A stretch of 64,000 nucleotides of DNA from Siniperca chuatsi (GCF_020085105.1 NC_058054.1:6931595-6995594); one strand, 5' to 3'; counted from the first letter of the stretch, positions 51,661-64,000 are shown. Notes: a model not told the origin generated them from the letters alone. A program made the numbers and translations.

Positions 51661-53843
51661 GTGAGTAGATATTTTTTATTTTTTTTGTCAGTGTTTTTAA
51701 TGTAACTTTAGTAACTTTAGTGTTTTCAGGTTTGCAGAGTTGGATTTATAAGTGTGTCTTTGCTAAAGTCAGTTAACAGCCATGTTGTTACTAGAGTTTA
51801 CCGACATGACCTCAATCTGTGAACTCTCAAAATACAAATACACAGAGCAGTCCATAAGTATGTGGACGCTGACATGTTTTGTGTTGTGCTGGCTCTTTTC
51901 TCCAGCACAATGGACTTGACATTAAACAATGACTATGAGAGTAAAATGCTGACCTTCAGCTGTAATTTGAGTGTACAGTTTAGAAACTGTAGCCTTGTCA
52001 TGGCTGGATGCCCCCCGATTTGCTATGAAGCAGTTAATATAGTTAATTAACCACAGCACAAAACTGTAATAGTGAAGGTCAAGTTTCAGGATTTAAAGAA
52101 TAAGGCTGGTGTCAACAAATCAGTCCCAAGCCAATGGTTCCTACTGAAGACCAAAATCTTTAAAAACAGGTTACAAATATATAATTTCATTTTTAAAATA
52201 GGCTCAGTAAAGGCTTAATAGGCTTAGTAAAAAAGTAAATAGGCTTAAACAGGAGTAAATACTTCATTTGTTGCGGACTATCTACTGATTCACTTGGTAC
52301 TCTGGTGAGTATTTCCAGCATACACTGCCCTGTGTGTGTGTTGAGTATTGAGTTCTGGTCCTACTGTGCTGTTACGAAATGCTACTATGTATAGAAAAGG
52401 GTATATGTCCTACACCAGGGCTACTCTATTACAAATTCAATTGGACCACATTTTAAAACCAGGAAATGTAGATGGGCCAGACATTTCAAGCAACTTATTT
52501 AAAACTTTTCTTAGCTTTTGATAATGACAAATTTTAAACAAATGAAAATTAATGTAGTTCATTTTGTCATGTCAGATTTATGTATGCTGGGCCACTTGGA
52601 GGTTGCTTCTGGGCCGGATGTGGCCCGCGGGCCTCCAATTGAATAGGCCAGTCCTACCCTGGTCATTTAAAAAATGATGTAACTCCCCCCTGAAGAACTT
52701 AAAGCTTATAGTCAGCTCTCTAATTTATGTCATTGTTCATTTTAAATGTTGGCGTGCAGAGCCAAAACATTGAAAAGTGTGTCAATGTTGCATTACCAAA
52801 GACTTATAAAAGTCTTACAAAGTCTTATATGCGTATATGGTCAGGGAAAAGATAACACACGGGAACTTTAGTTTGTTAAGATATAACTTGTGTTTGTGGT
52901 AACACTTTATATCACGTGTCCAAATTTCCTTGGAAGTTTTCTGGAAAACTATGTAATTTGGTACTTTTTAAAGGGCAGTAACAGGAAAGACAGTTATTTG
53001 ATTTGAGTTAGTTATGTTGAGTTTATAAGCAGATGTTGATTTCCAGAAGAATGTCCTTGAAAGAACTGCTCCATTTTAACCCATGTGAATATTAATGAAT
53101 TATTATTATTATGGGGAACTTAATTCCTCATATATGTTGAATTGTATGTAAACCAAGTATACATTTTTGCATGTACACTCTTTTAGTCATGCTGTGCACT
53201 GACTGAAAAACTCTCTAAAGTTATGCTAGCAATAGTTAGACTTATTTAATTGAATGTGTAATTAACAATCTCCATTTTTCCTATAAGAGAAATAGGAAAA
53301 ATGGAGAGCCAACAGTTTACTGTGGTTTCCCTGATTTCTATCCAGTGTATTGGTAATGTAATTCCCTAGTGACTCCTTTTATGTGATTCTTAAACAGGCA
53401 AATCAGTAATATGATTCATTTCCCCAGAGCTAGAAACATAACAATCACTGTAAATTTACTGTCATCAAGGTTTCAAGTCCAGACATGAAACCAGCTTCAA
53501 GTCCAGACTTGAAGTCTGTACGGTGAAGCTAGACTGTGAGATGTGAACCAGTAAATGCATCCTTTCATCCATAAAGGCATCAGTGAATTGTCAGTGATTC
53601 GCATTGTCTCTTCCAGTTTAGTCTCCATATGGAGCTGCTGATCAGTGAGACAGATTTATGCTGCTGACTCACTGGTCATGGCAGTGAATATTTACCCTCT
53701 GTTAGTCACTCGCGCTGAATGAGGTCGGAATGAAGAACTGATACTGTAGTAGAGATTAGCCTTGTGTTTTCGTCCGTAGTATGTTTAAGATGCATATTAG
53801 TTCCTAAACTAGTTTAATTTTCTCTTTTTCACTCCTCATTCAG

Positions 53844-53915
53844 CAAAAACCAGCGTTATTCGGTGGGATGTTCAAAAGATCCTTCAAGTCTGCAGAGCCA
53901 TCTGTCCAAGCACAG
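53844..53915 (+). CDS. unidentified repetitive-protein gene, exon (pair 1a): QKPALFGGMFKRSFKSAEPSVQAQ; possible start at internal ATG
   Basis: acceptor ctcattcag|, donor CAG|gtgatg; phase 0-0; polybasic G-MFK-x-SFK motif. Confidence 0.5.
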
Positions 53916-54171
53916 GTGATGTTGTAGTATTAACGTCCTTTCATTTAAATCTAGAACTTAACATTAAATGTATTATATAAGCTAATACACTGATAAAATC
54001 TTGCTTTTCATGAAAAACTCACTGTTGAATATTAATCACTGATGTTAAATATATTAAATATTAATATGTAAGATGTTTACCCGTACTTTGTTGACGTGTA
54101 CAGCAATAAAATTACAATATGCACTATTTGATTCTGCATCTGCTCACATGGACTCTGTGTTGACTTTACAG

Positions 54172-54237
54172 GACAGTTCATCAGCCAGCGGTGAACTTTC
54201 GAAGAGAAACGATAGCCTGACTGACAACAGCACCAAG
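54172..54237 (+). CDS. unidentified gene exon (pair 1b): DSSSASGELSKRNDSLTDNSTK
   Basis: anchored on ORF 54073; acceptor tttacag|, donor AAG|gtgatg; phase 0-0. Confidence 0.55.
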
Positions 54238-54325
54238 GTGATGCTCAGGAAACATTTCTGTAAATTCTGTGGTATAAATAAGTGATTTTTTAGCATGTAG
54301 ACTGACTTATTTAATAATATTTCAG

Positions 54326-54394
54326 GAAAAAGAAGGCGTGTTTAAAGGAATGTTTAAGAAGACGACCAAAACTGCCAAAGAGGGCCAGCCACAG
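54326..54394 (+). CDS. unidentified gene exon (pair 2a): EKEGVFKGMFKKTTKTAKEGQPQ
   Basis: acceptor atttcag|, donor CAG|gtttgt; phase 0-0. Confidence 0.55.
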
Positions 54395-54599
54395 GTTTGT
54401 CATGGCCTTCTTTGAACTTCGTGTGCTGTACATCTTGTTGCTTATTCTTTTTAATTTTACTGATATTTAACTAGAACTGAAATGATTATTCGATTAATCA
54501 ATTAGTTGATCAACAAAAGATTAGTGAACTATTTGACAGGTAAAATGTGGTGTTGTGTTATTTCAGTAAGAAGCTGACAGATAATCTTGTGTGTTTTAG

Positions 54600-62190: not shown

Positions 62191-62277
62191 AGCCAATCCG
62201 ATGATGAAAGCCTAAAAAAAGATGAATCTGCTGAAGCCAAAGAGGGAGGCGAGGCGAACTCTCCAGAAAGCAAAACA
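62191..62277 (+). CDS. unidentified gene exon: SQSDDESLKKDESAEAKEGGEANSPESKT
   Basis: acceptor tttgccacag|, donor ACA|gtaagt. Confidence 0.5.
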
Positions 62278-63180
62278 GTAAGTTTACTGTATCTCTTAAT
62301 CATTGTCAGTAAAACTGTATTCTTCACTAATCCTCAACATTAGTCTTAAGCTCGGGAAATGGATTGGTACACACAGTGACTGGTGTCAGAGCAAGTAAAA
62401 TGCCATGTCAGGCAAGTAAATCTAGCAACTCAAAAAGAATTAAACACATATATATATATATATAAACACGTATTTTTCTGGAGCTGATGAAGAAAGTAGC
62501 TATCTCTGTTGAGAGATGCGCATACCGATAGGGCACTCGCAAGTAGGGATGGCTACTGAAACCTGATATTAAACGGGCCCCGGGGTTAATTCATTAAAGA
62601 CTGTAGTATTACCACGCTCACTGCAGCCTCTCCTTCTGTCTGTGTCTTGTTTGTTATTTGTATATTTATATAACCTCTAATAAATCAAACAATTTGTATA
62701 GGGGCAAGTAAAAATTGACTTTGGGCAAGTGGATTTCTGATCATTTGCCCAGAAAAACCTCAATGTTGAACCCTGGGTGTAGAGACTGATTAACCTATGT
62801 AGTGTGTAGGTATTTGAGACTTTTTGTCAGTGTCTAAATTGACTGTGTGGTATGAACCCACATTTGCTGCTACCCGGGTTTGTGTACTAAGTTTTTGAAA
62901 ATAGACATAAATAGACATGGGTGCTTTAATTTATATATTTTGTGCAAGAATAGAAATTAAAGTTTTGATATTTTTTTTTAGTTAAAGTAACATCACTGTA
63001 ACATAGTCAAGCCTCTCTCTCTTTTTAATTGTTGTCTGTGAGCTTCTGTAAAGCCTGCTAGTTCTCATTATACAAATTGGCCCCGGAAAGTCCTTGAGAA
63101 GTCCTTGAATGAAATGTAGTTCTCTTGCAGCAGCTTCTTATGTCACCTAACACACTGTCACTGTGCCATTGTCTTTACAG

Positions 63181-63237
63181 ACCATGGTGAAGAAACACAA
63201 GCACCGTAATCCGTTCATGCCACAAGCTGCAGCCAAG
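63181..63237 (+). CDS. unidentified gene exon with NPF motif: TMVKKHKHRNPFMPQAAAK
   Basis: acceptor tctttacag|, donor AAG|gtattt. Confidence 0.5.
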
Positions 63238-63715
63238 GTATTTTCTTGATTTTGTACTTCGAGTAGGGTAAATACAGTCATGGAGACATTTATTCTCTTT
63301 GCACCTACCTCAGTTGGTTATATATACTATACCTAATTCATTACCTCCTCAATTTTTTTGACACAGCCTACACAATGAGCACCAGTTGTGTTTTTCCACT
63401 AGACTTATTTAGTCTACCTTTATGAGGAAACCACTGAGCTGGTTACCTAGCTGCTGGTGTGAAGATCAGGGAAGATAAAAGAATAATAAAAGAAGATAAA
63501 AATACATTATTTTGCCATTAATATTATATAATAGTTAATTTTTTGCTTTGTAACAAATTTTTAATTTGTTCCAATAAGATCACTTGTTTTTACCTCCAGA
63601 ACAGCTCTGCCTTTGAGTAATTGTATGGGAATTGGGAACCAATATCAGCCCAAAGCAAAATGTTATATTGATATTACAAATGCTTCATCTGCGTGTTTGT
63701 GTTTGTTGGTTGCAG

Positions 63716-63769
63716 GGCAAAGTTATACAGAGGCAAGCACAGGGCGGAGCTGCAGGCAACACAGACGAG
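63716..63769 (+). CDS. unidentified gene exon: GKVIQRQAQGGAAGNTDE (gene continues beyond window)
   Basis: anchored on ORF 63632; acceptor ggttgcag|, donor GAG|gtagag. Confidence 0.5.
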
Positions 63770-64000
63770 GTAGAGAAAATAAAACACTCATCAGTCTTTG
63801 TTTCTCTAAATGAGACAGAAAATTGTATTTGATGTTGCTTCTCTTTCTTTCTCTCCCTCAGTCACATTACATATAAAGCAACTTTTAGCCTTTTCCCACC
63901 CAGTCTGTGCCACTGTATTTATCCACCAGACTGACATGTTGTAGTCTTACTCATTGGGGTTCAGGATTACAAAAGCAGTTTCATTTACCCAACATGTCCC

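What the first reader, a model, noticed from the sequence alone, without database searches (positions are those of the whole stretch)
53840..63770. Unidentified gene made of at least 20 short symmetric (phase 0-0) exons encoding a highly charged, low-complexity protein
From 53.8 kb to the window end there is a regular series of 48-87-nt exons. Each starts right after a strong pyrimidine-rich acceptor, almost always with a GAx/AAx codon. Each ends with CAG|gt or AAG|gt. All are in phase 0, so any combination can be skipped without frame loss. The encoded peptide is K/E/S/D-rich with no globular-domain signature I can recognise. This architecture (modular, freely skippable exons) is typical of intrinsically disordered scaffold proteins and is easily missed or fragmented by gene predictors.
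Basis: partly seen in the sequence, partly recalled or inferred. Interest (0 to 1): 0.7.

Follow-up and report, generated by a model that had tools for sequence, protein, structure and literature searches.

The report
Disordered front half of fish apol1
The run of tiny in-frame exons is real, but it is the front half of an already annotated fish gene, "apolipoprotein L1", and encodes a floppy motif-studded tail whose folded ApoL domain lies just past the window end.

Summary
There are 21 exons of 48-87 nt between 53,844 and 63,769 on the + strand. All are multiples of 3, open in one frame and flanked by AG/GT, with one GC donor.

The gene is not unidentified. Twenty of the 21 exon peptides are exact, contiguous substrings of the RefSeq model "LOW QUALITY PROTEIN: apolipoprotein L1 [Siniperca chuatsi]" (872 aa). 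The 21st is a conserved cassette exon found in orthologues and in a cDNA-like contig. Two further 5' coding pieces lie upstream: the ATG at 51,443-51,445 and an exon at 51,613-51,660.

The window covers residues 1-462 of that protein. Its ApoL domain (Pfam PF05461, residues 525-779) lies beyond base 64,000.

- **Splicing:** intron-less contigs from related fish reproduce the exon junctions, and one 831-aa ORF joins this region to the ApoL domain.
- **Exon skipping:** annotated isoforms in Seriola and Sander skip whole exons.
- **Disorder:** AlphaFold2 gives pLDDT below 50 and almost no secondary structure for residues 1-467.
- **Constraint:** dN/dS is 0.29-0.44. Conserved islands are GMFKK/SNDSL exon-pair repeats, NPF motifs and PxxPxRP[ST]EE motifs.
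- **Distribution:** every named relative is a teleost ApoL-domain protein.

The proposed role, a splice-tunable docking tail for a membrane-active ApoL domain, is inference. Verdict: real, ordinary, already annotated.

The parts
51443..51445 (+). Start codon ATG, the last three bases of the first (mostly 5'UTR) exon, followed by gtgagt
   Evidence: sequence. cDNA-like contig L002 bases 44-96 align to 51,394-51,446 and then jump to 51,612. Orthologues begin M-[DE]-R-Y.
51613..51660 (+). Coding exon 2 (48 nt, phase 0-0): DRYDDLDLECDGGGVA
   Evidence: tblastn of P0002 and P0093. Junctions are reproduced in L001 and L002.
53844..53915 (+). Exon e1 (72 nt): QKPALFGGMFKRSFKSAEPSVQAQ. First GMFKK-type basic-hydrophobic module.
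   Evidence: Paralogous to e3 and e5 (z = 7.2 and 4.5).
54172..54237 (+). Exon e2 (66 nt): DSSSASGELSKRNDSLTDNSTK. SNDSL-type acidic/serine module.
   Evidence: Paralogous to e4, e6 and e7.
54326..54394 (+). Exon e3 (69 nt): EKEGVFKGMFKKTTKTAKEGQPQ. GMFKK module.
54600..54662 (+). Exon e4 (63 nt): DLLDNKLTASNDSLSENIATK. SNDSL module.
56039..56110 (+). Exon e5 (72 nt): ETGGMFSGMFKKSPKPFGGRTQPQ. GMFKK module.
56210..56278 (+). Exon e6 (69 nt): EDFSAPNELSGSNDSLSVNINTK. SNDSL module.
   Evidence: Paralogy between e4 and e6: z = 8.1.
56640..56702 (+). Exon e7 (63 nt): DDLSADGELSARVSLIEKPSK. Degenerate SNDSL module.
56854..56904 (+). Exon e8 (51 nt): GEVAAKILKNPFTSSSQ. First NPF motif. The donor is GC, not GT.
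   Evidence: Contiguous in P0093 and present in Seriola and Epinephelus proteins. Absent from contig L001.
57025..57099 (+). Exon e9 (75 nt): DKEKTQHSGDSNENTSTTEKPKDKQ
57265..57312 (+). Exon e10 (48 nt): NGFSAMMKSVFHTDKQ. A cassette exon, left out of the RefSeq isoform of this species but conserved.
   Evidence: Absent from P0093. Present in Seriola, Epinephelus and Stigmatopora proteins and in cDNA-like contig L001 at 85% DNA identity.
57528..57596 (+). Exon e11 (69 nt): EKNTDSDCEETLDNGEGQASHKQ. Acidic spacer.
57723..57773 (+). Exon e12 (51 nt): SKPPGAMTKLNPFRSAK. Second NPF motif.
57866..57931 (+). Exon e13 (66 nt): YEKQAGDEDPPASSEKSSGNKQ
59786..59845 (+). Exon e14 (60 nt, with the donor corrected by 9 nt): KDTEEMLKENEKQVEEKVKA
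   Evidence: Orthologues read ...EEKPKA|VKSNMIQ. Exact in P0093.
60079..60156 (+). Exon e15 (78 nt): VKSNMIQRERKERNEMPPVPPRPTEE. First PxxPxRP[ST]EE proline motif.
   Evidence: Paralogous to e17 (z = 8.5).
60250..60327 (+). Exon e16 (78 nt with the RefSeq acceptor at 60,250; 60 nt with the acceptor at 60,268 that the orthologues imply): (AVISPQ)EMKGISTYDKVKPRGTEYNQ
   Evidence: L002 aligns from 60,266.
60608..60688 (+). Exon e17 (81 nt): DYKDMISREKKAKPAETPVVPARPSEE. Second proline motif. Its orthologue is skipped in Sander isoforms.
60818..60871 (+). Exon e18 (54 nt): ELNRAARRGLQKQKSHHQ. Its orthologue is skipped in one Seriola isoform and one Sander isoform.
62191..62277 (+). Exon e19 (87 nt): SQSDDESLKKDESAEAKEGGEANSPESKT. 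Acidic SDDE module.
63181..63237 (+). Exon e20 (57 nt): TMVKKHKHRNPFMPQAAAK. Third NPF motif, the most conserved point of the whole region.
   Evidence: The N of this NPF is invariant in 30 of 30 orthologues; P, F and the following P are at 90% or more.
63716..63769 (+). Exon e21 (54 nt): GKVIQRQAQGGAAGNTDE. The last exon inside the window. The next peptide of the protein (NEGGNRSLFDKLEDF...) is not encoded in the window.

Best explanation
The feature is the 5' part of the teleost gene annotated as apolipoprotein L1 (apol1). It covers codons 1-462 of 872 in the RefSeq isoform, most likely from Siniperca chuatsi or a near-identical genome. The gene sits directly downstream of tep1 on the same strand.

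**Shown**
- 23 coding pieces in the window (ATG, exon 2, e1-e21) splice in phase 0 into one open frame.
- This frame is the N-terminal extension of a protein whose C-terminal ApoL domain is encoded beyond base 64,000.
- The extension is intrinsically disordered.
- It was built by tandem duplication of symmetric exons: GMFKK-type and SNDSL-type exons alternate, and the proline-motif exons are duplicated.
- Its exon content varies between species and between isoforms.
- It evolves under purifying selection, with short conserved islands in variable filler.

**Inferred mechanism**
- The extension acts as a multivalent docking tail.
- Its three NPF motifs would recruit EH-domain endocytic or recycling proteins.
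- Its two PxxPxRP[ST]EE motifs would recruit SH3-domain proteins.
- Its basic-hydrophobic GMFKK modules would give weak affinity for acidic membranes.
- Together these would position the membrane-active ApoL domain on endocytic or trafficking membranes.
- In-frame skipping of cassette exons would tune how many motifs each isoform carries.
For: **Identity**
- 20 of 21 exon peptides, and exon 2, are exact contiguous substrings of P0093, "apolipoprotein L1 [Siniperca chuatsi]".
- 92 to 127 teleost homologues were found. Most carry PF05461.
- The ApoL domain in P0093 spans residues 525-779, E = 4.6e-34.

**Transcription and splicing**
- Intron-less contigs L001 and L002 from sequencing runs of related fish switch between window exons exactly at the predicted junctions.
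- P0100 is an uninterrupted 831-aa ORF on a 3,313-nt contig. It runs from MERYGNLDLDLECDG to the ApoL domain.

**Skipping**
- Seriola and Sander isoforms differ by whole exons orthologous to e17 and e18, and by an NPF cassette exon.
- e10 is omitted in the RefSeq isoform.

**Disorder**
- Pfam finds nothing above threshold in the N-terminal region.
- AlphaFold2 with a 30-sequence alignment gives pLDDT below 50 and almost no secondary structure for residues 1-467, with helices after that.

**Constraint**
- dN/dS is 0.29 against L001 and 0.44 against L002.
- The mean top-residue fraction is 0.48 in the tail against 0.84 in the ApoL part.
- The NPF in e20 is invariant or nearly so.

**Exon duplication**
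- e15/e17 z = 8.5, e4/e6 z = 8.1, e1/e3 z = 7.2, e3/e5 z = 6.6.

**Motifs**
- 3 NPF, 2 P..P.RP, 2 GxFxGxFKK and 2 SNDSL.
- The proline motif reaches the Pfam p47_phox_C cut-off in a catfish orthologue (34.3 bits against 27).
Against: - The mechanism is untested. No binding partner, localisation or expression data exist for this tail, and I found no paper that describes it.
- NPF and PxxPxR are short motifs that also arise by chance in disordered sequence.
- Only the last NPF is strongly conserved. The other motifs are at roughly 50-90% conservation.
- In this species the proline motif scores below the Pfam cut-off (13.1 bits against 27, E = 0.066).
- Elopomorph orthologues replace the proline-motif segment with YENV/YEEV-containing sequence, so the motif set is not fixed.
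- I have no transcript data from this species itself.
- RefSeq flags the model as "LOW QUALITY PROTEIN".
- The ApoL-domain exons are outside the window and were not seen in this DNA.
Confidence: 0.85

Rival explanations
1. The exon series is a separate gene that encodes a stand-alone disordered protein. Gene predictors would then have fused it wrongly to the neighbouring ApoL-domain gene.
For: Several database models contain only the N-terminal part and no PF05461 domain: P0002, P0006, P0008, P0010, P0011, P0014 and P0039. Contig L001 ends in a stop after exon 14.
Against: P0100 is one uninterrupted 831-aa ORF on a 3,313-nt contig and joins both parts. L002 carries N-terminal exons and the ApoL domain on one 3.7-kb contig. 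More than 80 independent annotations join them. The stop in L001 lies in retained intron 14. That intron aligns to the window at 83.7% identity over 239 nt, about the same as the exons (78-89%), so it shows no extra conservation as coding sequence.
Confidence: 0.05
2. The tail is real and translated but is only a fast-evolving inert spacer, with no specific partners. The motifs would be by-products of composition and exon duplication.
For: Conservation is low (mean top-residue fraction 0.48) and there are many lineage-specific gains and losses of exons. The motif set differs in Elopomorpha. No cypriniform protein with this tail appeared in any search.
Against: dN/dS is 0.29-0.44, not about 1. 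The K-K-x-K-R-H-N-P-F-M-P island is invariant or at 90% or more across 30 species from eels to percomorphs. The same module types recur in the paralogues named apold1a and si:rp71-1g18.13.
Confidence: 0.3
3. The exons are pseudo-exons, repeats derived from a transposon, or chance open frames.
For: The introns do contain mobile-element debris: a reverse-transcriptase fragment at about 58.4-59.2 kb and a 483-bp element with 37-nt inverted termini at 61,364-61,846.
Against: None of the exons lies in those elements. The exon peptides match a RefSeq protein exactly and orthologues at E down to 1e-127. Spliced cDNA-like contigs exist. dN/dS is well below 1. The strand and block control gives 20 candidates against 0-10.
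Confidence: 0.01

Closest known systems
RefSeq model "LOW QUALITY PROTEIN: apolipoprotein L1 [Siniperca chuatsi]" (P0093, 872 aa)
   Same: Residues 1-462 are encoded by the window exons. Peptides match exactly and in the same order.
   Different: The model omits exon e10 (57,265-57,312) and uses the upstream acceptor of e16 (60,250). Its ApoL domain and C-terminus lie outside the window. Its last ~35 residues depart from the family consensus ending ...ENREYV.
Zebrafish apol1 (NP_001025309.1 / ENSDARG00000007425), studied by Anderson et al. 2015 (PMC4492502) and Kotb et al. 2016 (PMC4854397)
   Same: It has the same gene name. UniProt entries of many orthologues found here are titled "Apolipoprotein L, 1". 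Like this protein, it is described as lacking a secretory signal.
   Different: It was described as a 2.6-kb locus. Those papers do not mention a long N-terminal tail. No cypriniform protein matched the tail in any search, so whether zebrafish has the tail is open.
Human APOL1-6 (Pfam ApoL, PF05461)
   Same: The full-length fish protein carries the same Pfam domain (E = 4.6e-34).
   Different: From general knowledge, the human proteins are about 330-430 aa and have no such N-terminal array, and human APOL1 has a signal peptide. All 20 representatives of the tail-profile search that I looked up by name were teleost. No solved structure matches by sequence. One-to-one orthology to human APOL1 was not tested.
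Teleost paralogues annotated apold1a / si:rp71-1g18.13 (for example P0138 Sardina, P0144 Osmerus, P0165 Oryzias)
   Same: They have the same architecture: repeated GMFKK-type and SNDSL-type modules in front of an ApoL domain.
   Different: They are much longer (1,000-1,700 aa), with 5-9 matched repeat stretches. Where the sequence was read (P0134), the ApoL domain is more divergent.
Genes with arrays of short symmetric exons encoding disordered segments (for example titin PEVK, triadin); an analogy from general knowledge
   Same: Short phase 0-0 exons arose by tandem exon duplication. The segments are charged and disordered, with cassette-type alternative splicing.
   Different: There is no sequence relationship. 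Here the array is an N-terminal appendage of a membrane-active ApoL domain, not an elastic or luminal segment.
EH-domain ligands (NPF motif) and class II SH3 ligands such as the p47phox C-terminal proline-rich region (PF08944)
   Same: The tail has three NPF tripeptides and two PxxPxRP motifs in disordered sequence. A catfish orthologue passes the PF08944 cut-off.
   Different: The window protein scores 13.1 bits against the cut-off of 27. No binding was tested. The residues after the NPF motifs are not the acidic type that, from memory, EHD proteins prefer.

Membership tests
Teleost apol1 gene (as annotated in RefSeq/Ensembl) | The encoded peptide is identical or orthologous to annotated apol1 proteins | tested here: met
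   20 of 21 exon peptides are exact contiguous substrings of P0093. Identity to Seriola is 78% at E = 5e-127. In the profile search P0093 covers 100% of the query at 95% identity.
Teleost apol1 gene (as annotated in RefSeq/Ensembl) | Position next to tep1 | tested here: met
   TROVE, DUF4062, P-loop and WD40/TEP1-propeller hits lie on the + strand at 20,973-42,861, upstream of the ATG at 51,443. Synteny in other species was not checked.
ApoL family (Pfam PF05461) | An ApoL domain scoring above the Pfam gathering threshold | tested here: met
   This holds for the full-length protein P0093: 118.6 bits against 25.9, residues 525-779. Within the window it cannot be met. The window ends at codon 462, and the next peptide is not encoded in it.
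Human APOL1 orthologue (secreted, HDL-bound trypanolytic factor) | N-terminal signal peptide | tested here: not met
   By inspection only, with no predictor run. The N-terminus MDRYDDLDLECDGGGVAQKPALFGG is acidic and has no hydrophobic core. [quoted passage not shown]
Human APOL1 orthologue (secreted, HDL-bound trypanolytic factor) | One-to-one orthology by phylogeny or reciprocal best hit | not tested
   No tetrapod APOL sequences were retrieved. The name comes from annotation pipelines.
EH-domain ligand | NPF tripeptide in an accessible (disordered) region | tested here: met
   NPF occurs at residues 185, 267 and 445 of my 472-aa spliced translation. In P0093, which lacks e10, the last one is at 435-437 and is invariant or at 90% or more in 30 orthologues. 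The region has pLDDT below 50.
EH-domain ligand | Physical binding to an EH domain | not testable with these tools
   This needs a pull-down, ITC or NMR experiment.
p47phox C-terminal proline-rich region (PF08944) / class II SH3 ligand | A Pfam PF08944 score above threshold | tested here: not met
   The window protein scores 13.1 bits against 27, E = 0.066. The bare PxxPxR consensus is present twice. Catfish orthologue P0158 scores 34.3 bits.
Intrinsically disordered region | No domain hit, low predicted order and a biased composition | tested here: met
   Pfam finds no domain. AlphaFold2 gives pLDDT below 50 for residues 1-467 with one 6-residue helix. Charged residues are 34% and hydrophobic residues 17%.
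Transposon-derived pseudo-exons | Exons lie within repeats or mobile elements, or show no coding constraint | tested here: not met
   dN/dS is 0.29-0.44. The mobile-element fragments are intronic.

The most novel reading that the evidence does not exclude
The tail may be a teleost-specific invention that turns a pore-forming or membrane-active ApoL domain into a splice-tunable endocytic or trafficking adaptor. EH-domain proteins would dock on its NPF motifs, SH3 proteins on its PxxPxRP motifs, and acidic membranes on its GMFKK modules.

The tail is shared by the apol1, apold1a and si:rp71-1g18.13 paralogues and has not been described in the papers I could search. If zebrafish apol1 also has upstream tail exons, the published knock-down and CRISPR work would have used an incomplete gene model.
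Probability: 0.25. Interest if true: 0.45.

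Novelty: already known. Interest (0 to 1): 0.2.

Why it matters
For genome annotation this is routine. The gene is already modelled in this species and in more than 100 other teleosts.

Its modest value is for ApoL biology. Fish apol1 is used as a stand-in for human APOL1 in kidney-disease models. Yet in most teleost lineages more than half of the protein is a disordered, alternatively spliced, motif-bearing tail that human APOLs lack, and no paper I found discusses it.

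The window also gives a clean example of how symmetric phase-0 exons let a disordered region grow by exon duplication and vary by exon skipping.

Tried and rejected
- **Pfam on the spliced N-terminal translation:** only a sub-threshold p47_phox_C hit.
- **PDB sequence search with the full protein:** no hit.
- **First AlphaFold2 submission:** I re-ran it with P0093 as the first row.
- **Cassette exon NA[VM][VI]GAMSKLNPFRSANK:** Seriola, Epinephelus and others have it between e13 and e14. tblastn found no trace in 57.9-59.8 kb. P0093 lacks it too, and that intron holds a reverse-transcriptase fragment.
- **Extra acidic + KVKKPKRHNPFMPR exon pair:** other species have it between e20 and e21. It was not found in the window.
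- **A conserved tail-only isoform:** L001/P0002 ends ...KAVSLFSTSLMSHH*, matching read-through of intron 14 in the window. I rejected it as evidence because the retained intron (83.7% identity) is no better conserved than the exons. L002 also carries a retained intron.
- **A tRNA-like stretch near 50.85 kb:** ARAGORN finds no tRNA in 50-64 kb.
- **Literature searches** for apold1a, teleost APOL evolution, Siniperca, and a disordered N-terminus of fish apol1: nothing on this tail.
- **Whether zebrafish has the tail:** no cypriniform hit in any of three word-index searches or in the full profile search. This is absence of evidence only.

Full report
**1. Observation**

I read 52.5-64 kb and tabulated every candidate exon. 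Between 53,844 and 63,769 on the + strand there are 21 exons of 48-87 nt. Every length is a multiple of 3, and each exon is open in frame 0 and preceded by a pyrimidine-rich tract ending in AG. Twenty are followed by GT and one by GC (e8). Joined, they give one open frame.

The start-codon and end-codon regularities are weaker than stated. Only 13 of 21 exons start with GAx/AAx, and 15 of 21 end in CAG or AAG.

A crude acceptor / open frame / donor filter finds 20 candidates on the + strand of this 10-kb stretch. It finds 3 on the - strand and 0-10 in each other 10-kb block below 50 kb, on either strand.

**2. Identity**

The 452-aa translation found 92 teleost proteins. The best was Seriola dumerili at E = 5e-127 and 78% identity. 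Nearly all are 550-790 aa and carry Pfam PF05461 (ApoL). Many are named "apolipoprotein L1" or "Apolipoprotein L, 1".

A profile of ten N-terminal regions (A1) then retrieved P0093, "LOW QUALITY PROTEIN: apolipoprotein L1 [Siniperca chuatsi]", at 95% identity and 100% coverage.

A direct check shows that 20 of the 21 exon peptides are exact substrings of P0093, in order and contiguous. tblastn places exon 2 at 51,613-51,660 at 100% identity. So the window is that locus or a near-identical genome, and RefSeq uses these same exon borders.

Two corrections follow:
- The donor of e14 is at 59,845.
- RefSeq uses an acceptor at 60,250 for e16.

Exon e10 (57,265-57,312) is not in that isoform. It is present in orthologues and in cDNA-like contig L001.

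The gene starts upstream of the reported interval. The ATG is the last codon of an exon (51,443-51,445, then gtgagt), followed by a 48-nt exon at 51,613-51,660 encoding DRYDDLDLECDGGGVA.

After e21, the next peptide of P0093 (NEGGNRSLFDKLEDF...) is not encoded anywhere in the window. The ApoL domain (P0093 residues 525-779, 118.6 bits, E = 4.6e-34) therefore lies beyond base 64,000.

**3. Transcript evidence (from relatives, not from this species)**

Two contigs assembled from public sequencing runs carry long uninterrupted ORFs and so lack introns: L001 (1,747 nt, SRR28040489) and L002 (3,732 nt, SRR33452595).

Aligned to the window at 76-94% identity, they jump from exon to exon exactly at my junctions. 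For example, L002 bases 44-96 match 51,394-51,446, then 95-142 match 51,612-51,659, then 145-216 match 53,845-53,916. Each contig also retains one intron.

P0100 is an 831-aa uninterrupted ORF on a 3,313-nt contig. It runs from MERYGNLDLDLECDG through the whole tail into the ApoL domain and the family's usual C-terminus ...ENREYV. This argues against a gene-fusion artefact.

**4. Exon skipping**

Isoforms annotated in single species differ by whole exons that correspond to window exons:
- Seriola P0001 and P0003 differ by an 18-aa NPF cassette.
- P0004 lacks the orthologue of e18.
- Sander isoforms lack the orthologue of e17, or of both e17 and e18.

L002 skips the orthologues of e7-e11, and L001 lacks e8. 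The phase-0 design therefore is used for cassette splicing. Free combination of all exons is not shown.

**5. Nature of the encoded segment**

| Test | Result |
|---|---|
| Pfam on the tail | nothing above threshold |
| Composition | K+E+S+D 41%, charged 34%, net charge -2, hydrophobic 17% |
| AlphaFold2 on P0093 (30-sequence alignment A3) | residues 1-467 pLDDT below 50, one 6-residue helix; helical after that, block means up to 84 |
| Conservation (mean top-residue fraction) | 0.48 in the tail, 0.84 in the ApoL part |
| dN/dS, window against L001 | 0.29 over 269 codons |
| dN/dS, window against L002 | 0.44 over 327 codons |

The frame is therefore under purifying selection.

Conserved islands are short motifs:
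- GMFKK-type basic-hydrophobic modules (e1, e3, e5).
- SELSxSNDSL modules (e2, e4, e6, e7).
- Three NPF motifs (e8, e12, e20).
- Two xPxVPxRP[ST]EE motifs (e15, e17).

The island KKxKRHNPFMP in e20 is the best conserved. The N is invariant in 30 of 30 orthologues, and P, F and the following P are at 90% or more.

**6. Origin by exon duplication**

Pairwise comparison of exon peptides against shuffles shows paralogy: e15/e17 z = 8.5, e4/e6 z = 8.1, e1/e3 z = 7.2, e3/e5 z = 6.6 and e2/e6 z = 5.8.

Orthologues carry different numbers of the GMFKK+SNDSL pair and of the acidic + KVKKPKRHNPF pair. This window has three GMFKK exons, where P0002 has about seven.

**7. Distribution**

A profile of the tail alone (A2) was searched against 1.84 billion representative proteins. 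It found only 81 proteins at E of 0.001 or lower.

All 20 that I looked up by name are teleost proteins. All seven that I scanned carry an ApoL domain. They include 1,000-1,700-aa paralogues named apold1a or si:rp71-1g18.13, with 5-9 repeat stretches.

A search with a catfish tail found Siluriformes, Characiformes and Gymnotiformes. Elopomorpha, Clupeiformes, salmonids, smelts and percomorphs appear.

No non-teleost and no cypriniform protein appeared. That is absence of evidence only.

**8. Surroundings**

The introns contain mobile-element debris:
- A decayed reverse-transcriptase fragment at about 58.4-59.2 kb (RVT_1, E = 6e-4, below threshold).
- A 483-bp element with 37-nt inverted termini at 61,364-61,846.

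**9. Mechanism**

*Shown:* the tail is a disordered, duplicated-exon, alternatively spliced N-terminal extension of an ApoL-domain protein, and it has conserved short motifs.

*Inferred from general knowledge of short linear motifs:*
- NPF is the core ligand of EH domains (Eps15, intersectin, EHD proteins).
- PxxPxR is the class II SH3 ligand. The motif here resembles the p47phox C-terminal proline-rich region. It falls below the Pfam cut-off in this species and above it in a catfish orthologue.
- Lys/Phe-rich GMFKK modules could bind acidic membranes, as MARCKS-like basic-aromatic segments do.

The most likely reading is a multivalent docking tail. It would place the membrane-active ApoL domain on endocytic or trafficking membranes, with exon skipping setting the number of motifs. 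I give this mechanism about 0.3. The identity of the gene I put at above 0.95.

The main rival is an inert spacer, at about 0.3. It is disfavoured by dN/dS and by the invariant NPF island.

**10. Comparison with the literature**

The zebrafish apol1 papers used a short model: a 2.6-kb locus, NP_001025309.1. They note that it lacks a secretory domain (PMC4492502; PMC4854397). Neither mentions an N-terminal tail.

I found no paper on the tail, on apold1a, or on this gene in Siniperca. The library searched is not exhaustive.

**11. Verdict**

It is wrong on the main point, because the gene is annotated and belongs to a known family, and the window shows only its front half. Novelty is "already known" and interest is low.

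The residual interest is that the tail itself appears uncharacterised and teleost-restricted.

Noticed in passing
window 20,973-42,861 (+ strand): The upstream gene is tep1. Open frames hit TROVE (20,973-21,167), DUF4062 (26,895-27,224), a P-loop (29,791-30,054) and many WD40 repeats, including the "TEP-1 second beta-propeller" (36.7-42.9 kb).
   Followed up: partly
window ~58,380-59,250 (intron between e13 and e14): A decayed reverse-transcriptase fragment lies on the + strand (RVT_1, E = 6e-4, below the Pfam cut-off), with frameshifts and stops. This intron is also where other species have an NPF cassette exon (NAxxGAMSKLNPFRSANK) that I could not find here.
   Followed up: partly
window 61,364-61,846 (intron between e18 and e19): A 483-bp element is bounded by 37-nt inverted repeats that are 81% complementary. 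It looks like a miniature inverted-repeat transposable element. An 18-nt hairpin lies just upstream at 61,300-61,340.
   Followed up: partly
window 56,905-56,906: Exon e8 has a GC rather than a GT donor (TCTCAG|gcaatt). The RefSeq model uses this junction, and e8 is missing from one cDNA-like contig of a related fish. It may therefore be a weak, regulated splice site.
   Followed up: partly
window 57,265-57,312: Exon e10 (NGFSAMMKSVFHTDKQ) is conserved in other species and present in a cDNA-like contig. It is absent from the only RefSeq isoform of this species retrieved here (P0093), so that annotation probably lacks an isoform.
   Followed up: yes
P0093 residues ~838-872 (outside the window): The RefSeq protein is flagged LOW QUALITY. 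Its C-terminus (...DSSAAKFHALIVRKCWIAFHMLSGHTSIFSRCDKQI) departs from the family consensus ending ...ENREYV. The annotation problem is therefore at the 3' end, not in the exons seen here.
   Followed up: no
L001 bases 1,514-1,742 and L002 bases 470-637, against window 59,786-60,018 and 57,596-57,772: Both cDNA-like contigs from related fish retain one intron each, after e14 and before e12. Each retained intron truncates or splits the ORF. Several "tail-only" database proteins may come from such transcripts.
   Followed up: partly
P0033 and P0058 (Megalops, Anguilla): Elopomorph orthologues lack the PxxPxRP exons. They carry PIYENV / LPLYEEV tyrosine motifs in that position instead, so the motif content of the tail has been swapped between lineages.
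   Followed up: no
P0102 (Oncorhynchus gorbuscha LOC124041603), next in LOC numbering to the apol1-like LOC124041604: A salmonid protein of 838 aa has about 12 GMFKK-type modules interspersed with SNDSL modules. No Pfam ApoL hit is recorded for it, and its C-terminus reads like out-of-frame translation. The consecutive LOC numbers suggest a neighbouring gene, but its position was not checked. It may be a mis-modelled paralogue.
   Followed up: no
window 59,885-59,900, 60,056-60,070 and 56,497-56,519: The introns contain short (CA)n / (GT)n microsatellites and a run of about 23 T.
   Followed up: no
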